This document shows, piece after piece, positions 2,680 to 7,074 of a stretch of 13,428 nucleotides of DNA. Numbering within the stretch: the first letter of the stretch is position 1; each line of letters begins with the position of its first letter. The stretch is taken from positions 1 through 13,428 of the forward strand of contig JAJYNW010000023.1 of NCBI GenBank assembly GCA_021786105.1. The letters run 5' to 3'. The stretch is from a bacterium. Its GTDB lineage: Bacteria; Patescibacteriota; Microgenomatia; Daviesbacterales; UBA10151. Position numbers and translations under genes: made by a program. Under the pieces are notes generated by a model. That model saw nothing but the letters and a program-made list of their open reading frames with translations, was not told the DNA's origin and searched no databases.

Positions 2680-3183
2680 TTATCTTCCAATGTCTTCGGA
2701 TTCCAAAACCATTACCCAATCTTCTATGCCTACCTGCTTGATAAAATTCCTCAAGGCTTTCGAACAATTCTTTTTTGACCCCCAAACTGATCGTTGAAAA
2801 TGCACAAATCCCCACTCTTTAAGTTTCTGTCGTAATAAATCTCTGGCCGGCCGTCTCTTTTCTGGAATATCAAAAATGATCAACCTCCATTTACCATCCC
2901 ATTTCTCGCCAGGCATCTTTAAAGCTGCCATTAGCGCCTTATCTTTACCTCGCTCACTTAATCTATAAAGCAATTTCTCATCACTAACCAGCTCAATCAA
3001 CCCTTTTTCTCTTAAACGTTTAAAAGCTTGCGCTAAAGATGTTTTCTTCAACGGATATTCCCAACCACTGCCATAAGCATAATAGCCTGGATTGTACATA
3101 AAATCTTCCAGTCTCACATAACCGTCCACGGATTTTTCCAGTGCAAATAAAATCAAATTTGTTAAACTCTTCTTAACTTTCAT
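2680..3183 (-). CDS. PaaX-family transcriptional regulator (winged helix + Cas2-like ferredoxin domain)
   Basis: wHTH segment 'SLAQAFKRLREKGLIE..YRLSERG' followed by the PaaX-type 'WDGKWRLIIFDIPEKRR..RDLLR..L..WGF..FQRSVW'. Confidence 0.85.
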   Translation of the reverse strand: MKVKKSLTNLILFALEKSVDGYVRLEDFMYNPGYYAYGSGWEYPLKKTSLAQAFKRLREKGLIELVSDEKLLYRLSERGKDKALMAALKMPGEKWDGKWRLIIFDIPEKRRPARDLLRQKLKEWGFVHFQRSVWGSKKNCSKALRNFIKQVGIEDWVMVLESEDIGR

Positions 3184-3192
3184 TAATTCATT

Positions 3193-3220
3193 ATTATTAC
3201 GATCGTAATAGTTTTGTCAA
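3193..3220 (-). promoter_or_regulatory. sigma70-type promoter of the PaaX-like gene (short or no leader)
   Basis: Minus-strand TTGACA (3220-3215), 16-bp spacer, AATAAT (3198-3193); the ATG at 3183 follows within about 10 nt, with no Shine-Dalgarno. Confidence 0.55.
3195..3216. repeat. 22-bp direct repeat copy 2 with perfect 16-bp palindrome (putative operator)
   Basis: TATTACGATCGTAATA (3195-3210) is a perfect palindrome, followed by GTTTTG. Confidence 0.85.
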
Positions 3221-3245
3221 TTACCTACTATCACATTAGCTATTA

Positions 3246-3274
3246 TTGGAAAACTGTATAAAATGATATAAAAT
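3246..3274 (+). promoter_or_regulatory. promoter for tRNA-Thr(GGU)
   Basis: TTGGAA (3246-3251), 17-bp spacer, TAAAAT (3269-3274), 11 nt before the tRNA. Confidence 0.55.
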
Positions 3275-3285
3275 AAACTCCGTTT

Positions 3286-3530
3286 GCCGAAGTGGCTCAG
3301 TGGTAGAGCACGTTCTTGGTGATCGCTCAAATTGCCCATCCAAATAGTAATATCTGGATGAATTCCGAATAACGGTTAAAGATTTTTTTAAAAAAGATTC
3401 AGACCGTGGCGCTTAAAATGCGCCCGAACGACTGACAAGGAGGTCCTTTTTTTATAGAGAAAGGATCAAGATACAGTCTAGCCAAAAGCGAAGAACGGGG
3501 TCACGGGTTCGATTCCCGTCTTCGGCTCCA
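3286..3530 (+). tRNA. tRNA-Thr(GGT), intron-containing; exons 3286-3320 and 3491-3530
   Basis: The joined exons give a clean 75-nt cloverleaf: GCCGAAG/CTTCGGC, GCTC/GAGC, CGTTC-TT GGT AA-GAACG, ACGGG-TTCGATT-CCCGT, T, CCA. Confidence 0.92.
3321..3490 (+). ncRNA. group I intron, 170 nt, inserted at tRNA position 36/37
   Basis: The 5' exon ends in U and the intron ends in G. P2 CATCCA/TGGATG with a GTAA loop; P3 TTCC/GGAG; P4 ACGGTT/GACCGT; P5; P6 GGCGC/GCGCC; P7 A(C)GACTG 3428-3434/CAGTCT 3474-3479; P8 GTCCTTT/AAAGGAT; J8/7 plus P7' AAGATACAGTC matches the S element. Confidence 0.9.
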
Positions 3531-3591
3531 TTATTACAATCTTAGCAAACAACCCGTTCGGGTCTTTGGTCTCACAAATCCTGAGAAGAAA

Positions 3592-3699
3592 ATGAATCTC
3601 CCCGACTTAAAAGTCGGGGTATCTTCTTCTCTGTTTCGAGAAAAGAGAGATTCATCCCCGCCATTAAAATGGCAAGGTTTTCTCTCGCAGAGAATAAAA
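3592..3699. mobile_element. non-autonomous IS200/IS605-type palindromic element (PATE/REP-doublet-like); boundaries approximate
   Basis: Two related GC-rich hairpins with TAAA loops, CCCCGACT-TAAA-AGTCGGGG (3600-3619) and CCCCGCCAT-TAAA-ATGGCAAGG (3656-3677), in ATGAAT../ATTCAT.. contexts that resemble IS200/IS605 ends; no transposase between them. Confidence 0.55.
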
Positions 3700-3895
3700 G
3701 AGGCTCAAGGGCGGGTATGTACTGTTGAATGCAGAAATACAAATGACGCAAACGCTTGCATAACTACTTGTTTGCAGAAATTCCAAAATCCTTCTCCTAA
3801 ATAATCTCAAATTAAAAACTTTATCCTAAATATCTTTCAATTTCTTTGTTAAGTTGTTTAAATTTTTGTATTGGAAGTTAAAGACTACAACAGAG

Positions 3896-4537
3896 TTATT
3901 TACAGAGGGTTAGATCTGTCCCAACCTCATATAAATTATTATCATCCCCGCCATCACTTTTAGCTTTATCTGCGTATTTAGAGGATTCTATCTTAGTATC
4001 CAGTTCCCAATCCTTTCCATCAGAACAATAATGGTAATAGTAGGTTGCGGAATTGACCGGATCGACAGGTAGACCTTTTGGTGGATACTGTGGGTCTCGC
4101 ACAGGCAGACTCATTCCTAATTTAGTAAAATTTACTTTAACCCAACCAGCCCCATCCAATGGGTTAGCTCCTGAGTCTATTGATTTACCTTCACAAGGTG
4201 GTGTTTGCCCGCTACACAACCAGCTGGCATCAGGAGACTCTTTTTGTGCATTTACCAACATCTCCTGTATATCAGCAAAGTCGGAAAAGCGTACAGCATC
4301 TCTAGCACGTTTTGTTAGCTCCAATGGGTTGATTGCTATTACTACAACAGCTGCCAAAACAGGAATCATAATTAAAAACAATACGGCAATCCCTGCTGAT
4401 AAGAGTATCTTGACCCATAAGGGCCACTTCATCCAAAGAAACATAAGTAGGACTCCAAGAGGGAAAAAGAACAGCAATGCGAGCACTGTTACAACAGTCT
4501 TCCACTTTGGTACTGATTGATTTTTATTAACAGCCAC
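3896..4537 (-). CDS. type IV pilin/pseudopilin-like protein (CPR type) without a prepilin cleavage motif
   Basis: LAAVVVIAINP..TKRARDAVRFSD..IQ pilin alpha-helix; LPVDP.N..YYY.YCSDG..WEL and DGG..YEVGT C-terminus; 4 Cys; GTG start. Confidence 0.7.
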   Translation of the reverse strand: MAVNKNQSVPKWKTVVTVLALLFFFPLGVLLMFLWMKWPLWVKILLSAGIAVLFLIMIPVLAAVVVIAINPLELTKRARDAVRFSDFADIQEMLVNAQKESPDASWLCSGQTPPCEGKSIDSGANPLDGAGWVKVNFTKLGMSLPVRDPQYPPKGLPVDPVNSATYYYHYCSDGKDWELDTKIESSKYADKAKSDGGDDNNLYEVGTDLTLCK

Positions 4538-4605
4538 TAAATTCAGTTAAAAATAATCTTGTAACAAAGTCAATAGCCATTTAATTTTTGAGCCTGAGTT
4601 GGCTA

Positions 4606-4635
4606 TTTACAAAGCTTACGTATTAACATTACTAT
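4606..4635 (+). promoter_or_regulatory. possible promoter for the 4662-7074 gene pair
   Basis: TTTACA, 18-bp spacer, TACTAT. Confidence 0.4.
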
Positions 4636-4661
4636 AGAATTAGATCGATAAGATTGAGACT

Positions 4662-5663
4662 ATGGAAGACAAAAATTGGAGTATTTCTGAGCTTTATAGT
4701 AAGAGCTGGCAAATTATTAAAGATAATAAAATACTCTGGTTATTTGGTATGGCTGCTGTTGGTCTTAGTTCTGGAAGTTCACGAACAAATATTAAATCCG
4801 GGGATATCGACTCTATAAGGAAATTTTTCCAGAATAACGACCCCGGTACTACTTCAAATAAAATAACTCAAGTATTAGGAGCTTCAACTGATACTTTTGC
4901 AGAAACCATTAAAAACTTGTTCTTTGCAGTGCCTATATGGGTGTATGTTTTGTTCGGCTTAGGTATACTACTACTCATCTTAGCAGGTATCGTCCTAAAT
5001 CTGATTTACTCCGCTTGGGCAAACGGAGCCTTGATTGCTGGTGTAAATGCAGGAACAGGTAGCCAAAAACCAACCATAAGCCAAAGCTCAAACAATGCTT
5101 TTCCAGCTATTAAAGGACTTATCTGGTTAAATATAATTCCTACACTAATATTCTTTTTAATTGCAGCCGCAGTATTAGGTATTCTTATCCTGGGAATTAT
5201 TTTACTTCCTTCTTTTTACAAAGCTATACCAATTATATTAACAGTGATAGCTGTGATTGGAGCTTTTATTGGTTGGCTTCTACTCACCTTAACTCAAATT
5301 TGGGCTAGTAGAAGGGTGGTAATAGATGGAAAACCTGGCAAACAATCTTTTCTTACTTCTTTTAAATTAGCCAAAGGAAGATTTTGGAAGATGTTAGGAT
5401 TAGGAATTGTTAATATATTAATATCACTAGCGGTCGGTTTTATTATTGCGTTTCCGTTACTAATAGCCGGAGGAATAACAATATTTAGCGTTTTGTTTTC
5501 CAAATCAAATTCATCTTTACTAGGCTTTGCAATTTTGAGCGTTATAGTCACCGCATTAATTTATATTTTTATCAGTCCTATTTTATTTGGCATTTTAAAC
5601 TCATTTAAAGCAACTGTTTGGACGCTAGCTTACAACAAAATTAAGGGAGAATATGACGAATAA
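4662..5663 (+). CDS. multi-pass membrane protein of unknown function
   Basis: 333 aa with about 6 hydrophobic segments and a 'SF.TSFKL.KG.FWK..GL' motif common in uncharacterised membrane-anchor families. Confidence 0.75.
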   Translation: MEDKNWSISELYSKSWQIIKDNKILWLFGMAAVGLSSGSSRTNIKSGDIDSIRKFFQNNDPGTTSNKITQVLGASTDTFAETIKNLFFAVPIWVYVLFGLGILLLILAGIVLNLIYSAWANGALIAGVNAGTGSQKPTISQSSNNAFPAIKGLIWLNIIPTLIFFLIAAAVLGILILGIILLPSFYKAIPIILTVIAVIGAFIGWLLLTLTQIWASRRVVIDGKPGKQSFLTSFKLAKGRFWKMLGLGIVNILISLAVGFIIAFPLLIAGGITIFSVLFSKSNSSLLGFAILSVIVTALIYIFISPILFGILNSFKATVWTLAYNKIKGEYDE

Positions 5664-7074
5664 TCAGCCAGCTGCAGGTTTCTTTCTGAGATTCCTTGCC
5701 TATTTTAACGAGAAGTTAATATTTCTTCTTTTAGCTTCTTTATATTTATGGAATGTATCAAAAAATAGTACGTTGAACAGTGTTTATCAAGGTATAGTAA
5801 TTTTACTGGTAATTATAGTTTTTTACTTCCTACTTGGTATGGTGTATACCGTCCTGTTTACTCATTATTTTGGAGGTGATATAGGGAAATTACTTGGCGG
5901 TTTAAGAGTTAGAGATCAATCCGGTAATAAATTAACTTTTAATAAAATCCTTTTCAGGCAACTACTATCTTATAAATTTTCCTGGTTAGTATTTGGGTTA
6001 GGATTCCTGTCAATTCTGAAAGACCCTAATAAACAAGCATGGCATGATAAAACAGTTGATTCTAATGTTTTTAGAGTACAACCACTCCTACCACTAGCCT
6101 TATTAGTCTTCCTTTTGACTCTTGGTGGCAGTGGATATTTTTTAAAATCAAGTTTCGATAACTTTCTTAACAGTCCTGTCAAACAAGAAGTATTAGGGTT
6201 AGTTGCAGCTTTTCAAGAACAAAGTAAAAATAATCAAAAAACCAGTGACCAAAAGATTTCAAAGCAAATTCAAGATCAACAACTTCAGGTTTACGACTTA
6301 ATGAAAGCTAACAAAATAGATGAGGCTCTCAAAGAAGCTCAGCTAATGTTAATAAATTCTAAAACTACAAGCGAAAAATCTATATCTACCCAAGTGATAG
6401 GAGAGGTTTATGCTTCTAAATTGGATCATCCAACTGCAAAAACATACTTTACTGATGCTTTGAAGCTAGACCAAAACTTACCAGGGGCATATATTGGGTT
6501 AGCTGCTGCAAATATTCGAGAGAAAGACTTCCAACAAGCTATAGCTAACGCCCAAAAGGCAATAGACCTTGCACCAAGCAGAAGTGATTATTACTATTTG
6601 CTTGGTTTAGCTTATTATGGAGCAAAAGATAAAGATAAAGCCATTCAAAATATTGAAAAAGCAATTCAGGGAAACCCTAATGTTGAGGAATATAAAAAGA
6701 CTTTAGAGGATATTAAAAATTCAACATCTCAAACCACTACCAATCAGACTCAAACTAAAACAACTGCTCCAGCTCAACCTACTGGTCCAGGATATACACA
6801 AGCTGATATTAAATCATGGCAGGATGAACTTTCGTATATTAACCAAGATTTGAGCAATATCCCAAAGTTTTTAGGCAATTCATCTTATGACCAAGGCAAG
6901 TTAAACCAAATGTCTACTCTGTTGGATCAGAGAAAAGCTATAGCCAATCAAATCTATACCAAAATGGTTAATAACCAAACTTTAACGACTCAAGACGAGC
7001 AAGCAATGAATACTTATGACCAACTTACATCTCAATATGCTTCTCTTGCTAATCAAGTCTTTCCACGCCAATAA
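5653..7074 (+). CDS. RDD-family membrane domain fused to TPR repeats and a C-terminal helical domain
   Basis: RDD motifs (AGFFLRFLAY..E; GKLLGGLRVRD; KQAWHDK..D..V), a TM helix, about 3 TPRs (AYIGLA..A..AIDLAP; YYYLLGLAYY..KAI..NP) and a T/Q-rich linker; overlaps the upstream gene by 11 nt. Confidence 0.8.
   Translation: MTNNQPAAGFFLRFLAYFNEKLIFLLLASLYLWNVSKNSTLNSVYQGIVILLVIIVFYFLLGMVYTVLFTHYFGGDIGKLLGGLRVRDQSGNKLTFNKILFRQLLSYKFSWLVFGLGFLSILKDPNKQAWHDKTVDSNVFRVQPLLPLALLVFLLTLGGSGYFLKSSFDNFLNSPVKQEVLGLVAAFQEQSKNNQKTSDQKISKQIQDQQLQVYDLMKANKIDEALKEAQLMLINSKTTSEKSISTQVIGEVYASKLDHPTAKTYFTDALKLDQNLPGAYIGLAAANIREKDFQQAIANAQKAIDLAPSRSDYYYLLGLAYYGAKDKDKAIQNIEKAIQGNPNVEEYKKTLEDIKNSTSQTTTNQTQTKTTAPAQPTGPGYTQADIKSWQDELSYINQDLSNIPKFLGNSSYDQGKLNQMSTLLDQRKAIANQIYTKMVNNQTLTTQDEQAMNTYDQLTSQYASLANQVFPRQ

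What the first reader, a model, noticed from the sequence alone, without database searches (positions are those of the whole stretch)
3286..3530. tRNA-Thr(GGU) interrupted by a group I intron at position 36/37
Seen: two tRNA halves separated by 170 nt. The only junction that obeys the exon-U / intron-terminal-G rule restores a TT-GGT-AA loop, consistent with the Thr-type acceptor stem (G1-C72, C2-G71). P1 can form as UUGGU/GCUCAA with the required U-G pair (3320/3325). Known: the classical bacterial tRNA group I introns are in Leu(UAA), fMet, Ile(CAU) and Arg(CCU), the last two also at 36/37, and tRNA introns have been reported in Patescibacteria. Inference: a Thr(GGU) host is not one I know to be described, and standard annotation would probably miss or miscall this gene.
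Basis: partly seen in the sequence, partly recalled or inferred. Interest (0 to 1): 0.85.

Follow-up and report, generated by a model that had tools for sequence, protein, structure and literature searches.

The report
Miniature self-splicing intron in tRNA-Thr
A threonine tRNA gene of a tiny-genome (CPR/Patescibacteria) bacterium is interrupted by an unusually short group I-type intron that standard annotation tools miss, and related introns sit at the same spot in the same tRNA in many CPR lineages.

Summary
Window 3286-3530 is one tRNA gene split by 170 nt. Exons 3286-3320 and 3491-3530 join to tRNA-Thr(GGU). Twenty uninterrupted Thr(GGU) genes in the same family read TGGT followed directly by AA, which fixes the junction at 36/37.

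The insert has a group I core, supported by covariation in 38 homologous split Thr(GGU) genes:
- L2 is a GNRA tetraloop.
- P3, P4, P6 and P9.0 covary.
- P7 and J8/7 are invariant.
- The intron ends in G.

Rfam RF00028 detects none of these introns. A model built from them does match the RF00028-positive tRNA-Tyr introns of other CPR genomes over its whole length.

The family occurs in at least 25 of 400 sampled genomes of the phylum, always in Thr(GGU), and clusters by host family. The window and one congener have lost P9, giving introns of 170 and 158 nt against 186-243 nt in the other 36.

Splicing itself is inferred; no RNA data were informative. A 2020 preprint lists 17 new intron-bearing tRNA types only in images, so I could not check whether Thr is already described.

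The parts
3246..3274 (+). promoter-like site (TTGGAA, 17 nt, TAAAAT) 12 nt upstream of the tRNA
   Evidence: Consensus scan. This is a pattern match only.
3286..3320 (+). 5' exon of tRNA-Thr(GGU): acceptor strand, D arm, 5' anticodon stem 3311-3315, loop bases U32 U33 G34 G35 U36
   Evidence: It is 91-100% identical to the 5' part of uninterrupted Thr(GGU) genes in relatives.
3321..3490 (+). 170-nt group I-type intron, ending in omega-G at 3490
   Evidence: R1 core match at 3361-3484, 111.9 bits.
3318..3336 (+). P1 hairpin: 3318-3323 pairs with 3331-3336; splice-site wobble U3320.G3334; guide sequence 3331-3336; loop 3324-3330
   Evidence: RNAalifold. Pair counts: U.G in 38/38, and 3 of 6 pairs change on both sides.
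3337..3360 (+). P2, 10 pairs with one A/C mismatch (3343/3354), capped by the GNRA tetraloop GUAA at 3347-3350
   Evidence: 10/10 pairs covary; L2 is GNRA in 38/38.
3363..3366 (+). P3 5' strand (UUCC), pairs with 3439-3442 (GGAG)
   Evidence: all 4 pairs change on both sides (for example CG 24 / UA 14).
3372..3407 (+). P4 (3372-3377 with 3402-3407) enclosing J4/5 AAA, an A/U-rich P5 (3381-3388 with 3392-3399) and J5/4 CA
   Evidence: (P4 99.6% paired, one compensatory change in G039).
3408..3424 (+). P6 hairpin (3408-3412 with 3420-3424)
   Evidence: (3/3 counted pairs covary).
3428..3434 (+). P7 5' strand: A3428, bulged C3429, GACUG 3430-3434. It pairs with CAGUC 3474-3478 and U3479. G3430-C3478 is inferred to be the guanosine-binding pair.
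   Evidence: Invariant in 38/38. Aligned in register with P7 of RF00028-positive introns. The guanosine-binding role is inferred by analogy with Azoarcus G129-C176 (PMC13168695, passages).
3439..3442 (+). P3 3' strand
3443..3466 (+). P8 hairpin, a plain helix without an internal-loop receptor
3468..3479 (+). J8/7 (AAGAUA) and P7 3' strand (CAGUC, U)
   Evidence: Invariant or nearly so in 38 sequences. It matches the RF00028 consensus AAGAUAUAGUC except for the change that compensates P7.
3481..3489 (+). P9.0 (G3481-C3489, C3482-G3488) closed by the 5-nt loop CAAAA, in the place where 36 relatives carry a P9 hairpin
   Evidence: both pairs covary (GC 24/AU 12; CG 22/UA 14). P9 is absent only in the window and G089.
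3490..3490 (+). omega-G, the last intron base
   Evidence: G in 38/38.
3491..3530 (+). 3' exon: A37 A38, 3' anticodon stem 3493-3497, variable loop, T arm, acceptor strand 3520-3526, discriminator U3527, encoded CCA
3600..3619 (+). terminator-like hairpin about 70 nt downstream of the tRNA
   Evidence: This is a pattern match only.

Best explanation
Window 3286-3530 encodes the genome's only tRNA-Thr(GGU). It is interrupted between U36 and A37 by a 170-nt group I intron of the compact bacterial-tRNA (IC3-like) type.

Inferred mechanism:
1. The pre-tRNA folds so that the last exon bases pair with the guide sequence UUGCC (P1). This places the U3320.G3334 wobble at the active site built by P3-P8 and P4-P6.
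2. A free guanosine bound at P7 (G3430-C3478) attacks after U3320.
3. The terminal G3490, held by the 2-bp P9.0, replaces it, and the 5' exon attacks after G3490.
4. This gives the anticodon loop UUGGUAA. The exons stay paired through the anticodon stem throughout.

Shown here: the split gene, the junction, the conserved and covarying secondary structure, the relationship to recognised group I introns, and the distribution.

Inferred only: catalysis, and whether it needs no protein.

The window's copy and that of one congener are a derived miniature form. P9 has been replaced by a 5-nt loop, and the P5 loop no longer carries the motif that is complementary to L9 in many relatives.
For: - Split gene and junction. 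Twenty of 20 uninterrupted alleles checked read TGGT|AA.
- No other Thr(GGU) gene in the 92%-complete genome: the set has Thr tgt and cgt only, while Arg gcg and Pro ggg exist elsewhere, so the alternative anticodons are already covered.
- Structure on 38 homologous split genes: 96.5% of cells paired, against 35-42% when partners are slid by 1-3 columns, and 0 of 500 shuffles reach any measure.
  - U.G at the splice site in 38/38.
  - P3: 4 of 4 pairs have compensatory changes. P9.0: 2 of 2. P2: 10 of 10. P6: 3 of 3.
  - P7 is invariant.
- RNAalifold finds P1, P2, P4, P5, P6 and P7 on its own.
- All 38 introns end in G.
- L2 is GNRA in 38/38. GAAA goes with a CUAAG..UAUG-type internal loop in P8 in 19 of 25, non-GAAA in 0 of 13. 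This fits the L2-P8 tetraloop-receptor contact described for Azoarcus (PMC2813881, passages) and the specificity of the 11-nt receptor for GAAA (PMC2275092, passages).
- Covariance model R1, built from the Thr intron cores, matches tRNA-Tyr introns over its full length at 29.5, 21.9, 20.1 and 12.1 bits (E 1e-6 to 0.08). Three of these four score 55.1, 47.1 and 44.9 bits with RF00028.
- No decay: the window keeps 46 of 46 intron positions that are invariant in the other 37. It keeps 62 of 65 positions that are at least 90% conserved, and the 3 misses all lie in the deleted P9.
- Window and G089 differ by compensatory changes in P2, P6 and P8.
- No tRNA-splicing endonuclease domain in the genome.
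Against: - RF00028 gives no match to this intron or to any Thr(GGU) homologue, even at E<=10.
- No RNA evidence of splicing. No RNA run holds the stretch, and the one RNA contig laid was uninformative.
- P7 and J8/7 never vary, so they carry no covariation evidence. Part of that invariance is ascertainment: 13 loci were found with a pattern that fixes these bases.
- The single-sequence minimum-energy fold does not contain P1, P3 or P9.0. It extends the anticodon stem instead.
- P10 can be at most 2 bp (A3491-U3333, A3492-U3332) and cannot be tested, because the exon is fixed.
- P9, a canonical element, is missing, and P5 is almost pure A/U, so the miniature form may fold poorly without help.
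- RtcB is encoded. It is also present in 6 of the 10 bacterial control genomes.
- The structure tested was derived from these same sequences, which favours it over the slid controls.
Confidence: 0.85

Rival explanations
1. The core is a group I ribozyme, but the P9-less miniature form no longer splices on its own. It depends on a host protein or chaperone, or on unusual ionic conditions, to fold.
For: - P9 and the L5 motif are lost only in the window and G089.
- About half of the relatives show L5-L9 complementarity of 4 nt or more: 18 of 36, against 24.5% of non-cognate pairs. This suggests that the contact matters.
- P5 is A/U-only and P8 is A/U-rich.
Against: - The L2 tetraloop, P8, P9.0 and every invariant core position are kept.
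- No intron ORF exists, and no candidate cofactor was identified.
- Nothing here measures folding.
Confidence: 0.12
2. The gene is a dead tRNA. The intron is a decaying relic that is no longer removed, and ACC/ACU codons are read by tRNA-Thr(UGU).
For: - Thr(UGU) and Thr(CGU) genes exist.
- Small genomes often reduce their tRNA sets.
- There is no RNA evidence of splicing.
Against: - 46 of 46 invariant intron positions are kept.
- Compensatory changes separate the window from G089.
- The exons are up to 100% identical to uninterrupted alleles, with all stems intact.
Confidence: 0.02
3. It is a protein-spliced (archaeal/eukaryal-type) intron, cut by a splicing endonuclease and sealed by RtcB.
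For: RtcB is encoded at G000:C26:35587-36837.
Against: - No tRNA_int_endo domain in the genome, while 4 of 4 archaeal controls ring.
- The site is 36/37, not 37/38.
- The flanks cannot form a bulge-helix-bulge: 7 unpaired bases would separate the only candidate helix from the anticodon stem (my reading).
- The conserved group I core would be left unexplained.
Confidence: 0.01

Closest known systems
Azoarcus sp. BH72 tRNA-Ile(CAU) group I intron (IC3; 'Ile2.5Ug' in Williams 2020)
   Same: - A bacterial tRNA host, with the same insertion site after the fifth anticodon-loop base (36/37).
- U at -1 and a terminal G.
- Compact, with no ORF.
- Elements P2-P8 and P9.0.
- A GNRA tetraloop on P2, with P8 as its receptor helix (PMC13168695 and PMC2813881, passages).
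   Different: - The host is Thr(GGU).
- 170 nt against 205 nt.
- No P9, and hence no L9-P5 tetraloop-receptor contact.
- P3 has only 4 bp.
- P7 reads GACUG/CAGUC.
- I could not align the two directly, because no Azoarcus sequence was available to the tools.
Group I introns in tRNA-Tyr(GUA) genes of other CPR genomes (L051 483-688, L066 830-1031, L067 2579-2796)
   Same: - The same phylum, often 0.4-1 kb from the Thr(GGU) gene, and about 200 nt long.
- The same order of P3-P4-P5-P6-P7-P3'-P8-J8/7-P7'.
- They align with model R1 end to end.
   Different: - They are recognised by RF00028 (44.9-55.1 bits), and the Thr introns are not.
- Longer P3 (6 bp).
- P7 reads GACUA/UAGUC.
- Different host tRNA.
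Classical bacterial tRNA introns Leu(UAA), fMet and Arg(CCU), and the 17 further tRNA/site types of Williams 2020 (bioRxiv 10.1101/2020.01.27.920355)
   Same: - Group I introns in the anticodon loop, delimited by U-1 and a terminal G.
- That survey found 0.49 split tRNA genes per genome in 'metagenomic assemblies from unnamed phyla' (whole text read).
   Different: - Whether Thr at site 5 is among the 17 is given only in an image table, which I could not see.
- That pipeline's first phase needs an RF00028 hit of about 18-20 bits, and I found no RF00028 match up to E = 10 on the Thr introns of 19 loci.
- Its second phase used a new model that I could not run.

Membership tests
Group I intron | 5' splice site after a U that forms a U.G wobble inside P1 with an internal guide sequence | tested here: met
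   U3320.G3334. U.G is present in 38/38, the flanking exon pairs are invariant and the three intron-side pairs covary.
Group I intron | Intron ends in G (omega-G), positioned by P9.0 | tested here: met
   G in 38/38. Both P9.0 pairs covary (GC/AU and CG/UA).
Group I intron | Core topology P3-[P4-P5-P6]-P7-P3'-P8-P7', with the P3/P7 pseudoknot | tested here: met
   P3 4/4, P4 and P6 are supported by compensatory changes. P7 is 100% paired but invariant.
Group I intron | Conserved J8/7 and P7 sequence elements that form the guanosine-binding site | tested here: inconclusive
   AAGAUA-CAGUC and ACGACUG align with the RF00028 consensus AAGAUAUAGUC and AGACUA, with a compensating change. Guanosine binding itself was not tested.
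Group I intron | Match to the curated Rfam model RF00028. [quoted passage not shown] | tested here: not met
   No hit at E<=10 on the window or on Thr introns in 19 loci. None at E<=1 in 7 family loci. The whole-genome search hit other places only.
Group I intron | Sequence-plus-structure similarity to accepted group I introns | tested here: met
   Model R1 built from the Thr cores hits RF00028-positive tRNA-Tyr introns over positions 1-121, at 29.5, 20.1 and 12.1 bits, plus a fourth Tyr intron at 21.9 bits. E-values from this model are rough.
Group I intron | Guanosine- and Mg2+-dependent self-splicing | not testable with these tools
   No RNA run holds the stretch. The reads laid were contigs.
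IC3 subgroup (bacterial tRNA introns) | Anticodon-loop insertion; compact core without P2.1 or P5abc; L2-P8 and L9-P5 tetraloop-receptor contacts | tested here: inconclusive
   The insertion site and compact core are met. L2 GNRA with a P8 receptor is met for the family. In the window L2 is GUAA and P8 is a plain helix. L9-P5 cannot exist in the window because there is no P9. No subgroup models were available.
tRNA-Thr(GGU) | Cloverleaf, anticodon GGU, A37, and near-identity to uninterrupted Thr(GGU) genes | tested here: met
   The tRNA stems are 100% paired with covariation in 38 sequences.
Bulge-helix-bulge (protein-spliced) tRNA intron | BHB motif at the exon-intron borders and a splicing endonuclease in the genome | tested here: not met
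   No PF01974 match. No BHB can be drawn on the sequence (my reading).

The most novel reading that the evidence does not exclude
The window (170 nt) and its congener G089 (158 nt) carry functional, naturally miniaturised group I ribozymes. They are shorter than the 205-nt Azoarcus intron that serves as the compact model system. The whole P9 arm is replaced by a 5-nt loop that closes P9.0.

They belong to a CPR-wide family that is inherited with its hosts, is restricted to Thr(GGU), and is invisible to RF00028. If that is so, tRNA-Thr(GGU) is wrongly reported as missing, or as Arg/Pro/Leu/His, in several per cent of CPR genomes. Nature would also have run a P9-deletion experiment whose product is still under selection.
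Probability: 0.45. Interest if true: 0.65.

Novelty: new member of a known kind. Interest (0 to 1): 0.5.

Why it matters
- Annotation. The only tRNA for ACC/ACU with a G34 anticodon is missed by default ARAGORN and by Rfam. It is miscalled in 16 of 38 cases when introns are allowed. CPR tRNA inventories and inferences about codon reading are therefore biased. A family-specific covariance model such as R1 fixes this.
- Ribozyme biology. The family gives 38 natural variants of a very compact group I core, 186-243 nt long. They show covarying tertiary contacts: L2-P8, and in part L5-L9. Two derivatives of 158 and 170 nt lack P9. These are candidates for the smallest natural self-splicing group I introns, and they are a natural test of what P9 contributes.
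- Evolution. The same intron sits in the same tRNA across distant CPR lineages, clusters by host family, and is patchy even within a genus. This speaks for old vertical inheritance with repeated precise loss, in genomes that are otherwise under strong reduction.

Tried and rejected
- Rfam. At the gathering threshold on the window, at E<=10 on 3200-3620 and across the whole genome, there is no RF00028 match on the intron. The 15.3-bit match at 4495-4651(-) is A/T-rich, overlaps an ORF and was judged spurious.
The pairing with G3325 was rejected.
- My own first idea. GCCAA 3481-3485 looked like a guide sequence at the 3' end pairing with exon UUGGU. I rejected it: in the 36 P9-bearing relatives these bases are the start of P9.0/P9, and GC 3481-82 covaries with GC 3488-89.
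- Bulge-helix-bulge reading. Rejected.
- Expression. No RNA holder is listed. The one metatranscriptome contig (X7, 113 nt) touches only D-arm-like and T-arm-like stretches, with 63 other bases between them. It is not this spliced tRNA and is not informative. DNA contigs with exon 1 running straight into exon 2 (loose ends at 3320) are uninterrupted alleles of other organisms in those samples, not splicing.
- Search for more P9-less forms. A pattern scan of metagenome contigs gave 7 places. None has a tRNA or an intron core, so all are chance matches. Records of the window's own genome may be left out of that scan.
- L5-L9 kissing. It is supported only for part of the family: at least 5 nt in 10 of 36, against 6.2% of non-cognate pairs. 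It is not applicable to the window.
- Other copies. Model R1 finds no second copy in the genome.
- Literature.
  - Eight paper runs found no paper that names a Thr(GGU) group I intron. One search returned only noise.
  - The library lacks most subscription journals.
  - Supplements are closed, so gpI.sto and the model of Williams 2020, which may include Thr, could not be seen.

Full report
**The observation**

The sequence at 3286-3530 reads as the 5' part of a tRNA up to the first five anticodon-loop bases. Then come 170 nt, then two loop bases and the 3' part of the tRNA with an encoded CCA.

Default ARAGORN finds only tRNA-Thr(UGU) at 695-770. Rfam at gathering threshold finds only that same gene. 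With introns allowed, ARAGORN reports one tRNA at [3286,3530] with a 170-nt intron, but it places the intron at 33/34 and calls the gene Arg(gcg).

The seven-base loop can be split between the two sides in several ways. Only 3320|3491 puts a U before the 5' splice site and a G at the intron's end. Exons joined there by a script are called tRNA-Thr(ggt).

**The junction is fixed by natural intron-less alleles**

A BLAST of 3286-3530 over the 96 genomes of the window's family gave two kinds of match.
- Full-length matches with an insert: G089, G043, G020, G044, G039, G023 and G005, plus G025 cut by a contig end.
- Many genomes in which query bases 1-35 directly abut bases 206-24x.

ARAGORN such loci as uninterrupted tRNA-Thr(ggt). 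All 20 read TGGT followed at once by AA. So the exon borders are 3320 and 3491, the anticodon is GGU and position 37 is A.

In the window's own genome (1.04 Mb, 26 contigs, 92% complete) there is no other Thr(GGU) gene, whereas Arg(gcg) and Pro(ggg) genes exist elsewhere.

**What the insert is**

Eight family members (alignment A1) share long identical blocks separated by hairpins that differ by compensatory changes. RNAalifold predicts P1, P2, P4, P5, P6 and P7 on its own.

I then widened the set in two ways.
- A pattern of the P7/J8/7 blocks, scanned over one genome for each of 185,579 species, gave 13 loci. Their titles name Daviesbacteria (2), Saccharibacteria, Yanofskybacteria, Azambacteria, Kerfeldbacteria and Gracilibacteria, plus six 'uncultured Gammaproteobacteria' MAGs whose labels I doubt. 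Seven of the 13 are the family genomes already seen. All 13 sit in a tRNA reading ...TGGT|intron|AA....
- A BLAST of one intron over 401 sampled genomes of the phylum gave 37 genomes with a match. Of the 29 loci fetched besides the window's own, 25 hold a split Thr(GGU) gene and 4 hold no tRNA. Seven weak-hit genomes were not fetched.

This gives 38 distinct split genes (alignment A2). In all 38, exon 1 ends in TGGT, the intron ends in G and exon 2 starts with AA.

**Structure test**

I counted a hand-drawn group I structure on A2.
- 96.5% of cells form standard pairs, against 35-42% when the 3' partners are slid by 1-3 columns. No shuffle out of 500 reaches any observed measure.
- P1 pairs exon GGU with GCC of the guide sequence. 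The U.G wobble (window U3320.G3334) is present in 38 of 38, and the three following intron pairs covary.
- P3 (3363-66 with 3439-42) has compensatory changes at all four pairs.
- P9.0 (3481-82 with 3488-89) covaries at both pairs.
- P2 covaries at 10 of 10 pairs and P6 at 3 of 3. P4 has one compensatory change.
- P7 (GACUG/CAGUC, plus A3428-U3479 with C3429 bulged) never varies.

Two caveats apply. The structure was derived from these sequences. Thirteen of the 38 were found with a pattern that fixes P7 and J8/7.

The single-sequence fold of 3311-3497 reproduces P2, P4, P5, P6, P7 and P8 (z = -5.05). It does not reproduce P1, P3 or P9.0.

**Tertiary-contact signatures**

L2 is a GNRA tetraloop in 38 of 38. 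When it is GAAA, P8 carries a CUAAG..UAUG-type internal loop in 19 of 25. When it is GUAA, GCAA or GGAA, P8 carries one in 0 of 13.

This is the pattern expected for an L2-P8 tetraloop-receptor contact. Passages in PMC2813881 name P2 and P9 as the loop elements and P5 and P8 as the receptor helices in Azoarcus. Passages in PMC2275092 describe the selectivity of the 11-nt receptor for GAAA.

In many P9-bearing members the P5 loop and the P9 loop are complementary. Runs of at least 5 nt occur in 10 of 36 cognate pairs, against 6.2% of 1,260 non-cognate pairs and 5.6% of shuffles. This hints at a loop-loop contact in place of the L9-P5 tetraloop-receptor contact.

**Relation to accepted group I introns**

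RF00028 does not match the window's intron at E<=10, the seven family homologues at E<=1, or the Thr introns in 19 further loci at E<=10.

In those same loci it does match neighbouring tRNA-Tyr introns (55.1, 47.1 and 44.9 bits) and a tRNA-Leu intron (63.1 bits). A covariance model of the Thr intron cores (R1: 37 sequences, 121 positions) scores the window at 111.9 bits. It matches four tRNA-Tyr introns over its whole length at 29.5, 21.9, 20.1 and 12.1 bits.

The printed alignments put P4, P6, P7, P8 and J8/7 in register. The Thr introns differ by a short P3 and by a compensated change in P7. [quoted passage not shown]

I therefore file the insert as a group I intron despite the missing Rfam hit.

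**The window's special form**

Intron lengths are 158 nt (G089), 170 nt (window) and 186-243 nt for the other 36. The Azoarcus model intron is 205 nt (PMC13168695, passages).

The two short ones are from the same genus and are each other's nearest relatives (83% identity). Both lack P9, so P9.0 is closed by the loop CAAAA. Both have lost the L5 motif.

The window keeps 46 of 46 otherwise invariant intron positions and 62 of 65 positions that are at least 90% conserved. The three misses lie in the deleted P9. Window and G089 differ by compensatory changes in P2, P6 and P8. This argues that the miniature form is still under selection.

A pattern scan of the metagenome collection for further P9-less forms gave only 7 chance matches.

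**Distribution and history**

The intron is present in 9 of the 96 family genomes. It is present in at least 25 of the 400 other sampled genomes of the phylum. This is a lower bound, because BLAST with one query is insensitive.

Within the window's genus, two genomes have the intron and at least five have the uninterrupted gene. On a maximum-likelihood tree the introns cluster by host family: the 20 labels need 19 changes, which is the minimum, and 0 of 200 shuffles do as well. Kin share labels, so this shows clustering and not a rate.

There is no ORF in the intron, and model R1 finds one copy only in the genome. The simplest reading is old inheritance with repeated precise loss.

**Rivals**

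The genome has no splicing-endonuclease domain and no bulge-helix-bulge can be drawn. RtcB is present, but it is also present in six bacterial controls. A dead gene is unlikely given the conservation. Whether the miniature form needs a protein is open.

**Novelty**

[quoted passage not shown] Williams 2020 (whole text read) raised the number of tRNA/site types from 4 to 21 and found many in metagenome-assembled genomes of unnamed phyla. The list itself is in images that I could not see.

Eight literature searches found no paper that names a Thr(GGU) intron. I rate the finding as a new member of a known kind. The P9-less 158-170-nt form and the blindness of RF00028 to the whole family are the parts most likely to be new.

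**Context**

- A promoter-like site ends 12 nt upstream of the tRNA, and terminator-like hairpins lie 70-130 nt downstream.
- Neighbouring ORFs: a PaaX_M-domain protein at 2683-3183(-), and an ORF without Pfam match at 3899-4537(-).

Noticed in passing
G000:C8:11976-12212 (-), = L001:1501-1737: The genome's own 16S rRNA gene (RF00177, 1063.8 bits) contains a stretch that matches RF00028 at 30 bits, below the 50-bit cut-off. It is probably a group I intron near the 5' part of the 16S gene, as is often reported for CPR rRNA genes.
   Followed up: partly
window 3531-3720 (+): The region just downstream of the tRNA folds strongly (MFE -63.8 kcal/mol, z = -4.86, 0 of 200 shuffles as good). It has a long closing stem and two G+C-rich hairpins at 3600-3619 and 3660-3673 that also score as terminator-like. 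No Rfam family reaches threshold; HgcC scores 19.6 bits on the minus strand. It is either an unknown small RNA or a tandem terminator.
   Followed up: partly
whole genome G000: ARAGORN finds 38 tRNAs but no Tyr, His, Gly(UCC), Arg(UCU/CCU) or Ala(GGC/CGC). It finds Ile(UAU), and Arg(GCG) in place of Arg(ACG). Some of the missing genes may lie in the missing 8% of the genome, or may carry introns that ARAGORN does not resolve. Model R1 and RF00028 found no further intron.
   Followed up: partly
L051 458-742, L066 805-1088, L067 2523-2822, L075 1677-1951; L038 3020-3357: Other CPR genomes carry introns of about 190-270 nt in tRNA-Tyr(GUA) next to the Thr(GGU) gene, and one in a tRNA-Leu. RF00028 recognises four of the five. 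ARAGORN miscalls the L066 one as Ser(gga).
   Followed up: partly
L051 824-1420 (+): A 198-aa free-standing ORF lies between an intron-bearing tRNA-Tyr gene and an intron-bearing tRNA-Thr gene. It has a weak, below-cut-off LAGLIDADG_3 match (17.4 bits, E 0.0055). It may be a homing-endonuclease relative sitting beside ORF-less introns.
   Followed up: partly
alignment A2, P5 and P9 loops of relatives (e.g. L046, L057, L072): The loops of P5 and P9 are mutually complementary, with different sequences in different lineages (up to 6 nt). This suggests a loop-loop contact in place of the L9-P5 tetraloop-receptor contact of Azoarcus-type introns.
   Followed up: partly
window 2683-3183 (-): The ORF upstream of the tRNA has a PaaX_M (Cas2-like) domain (79.2 bits). 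The ORF at 5653-7071 combines an RDD domain with TPR repeats.
   Followed up: no
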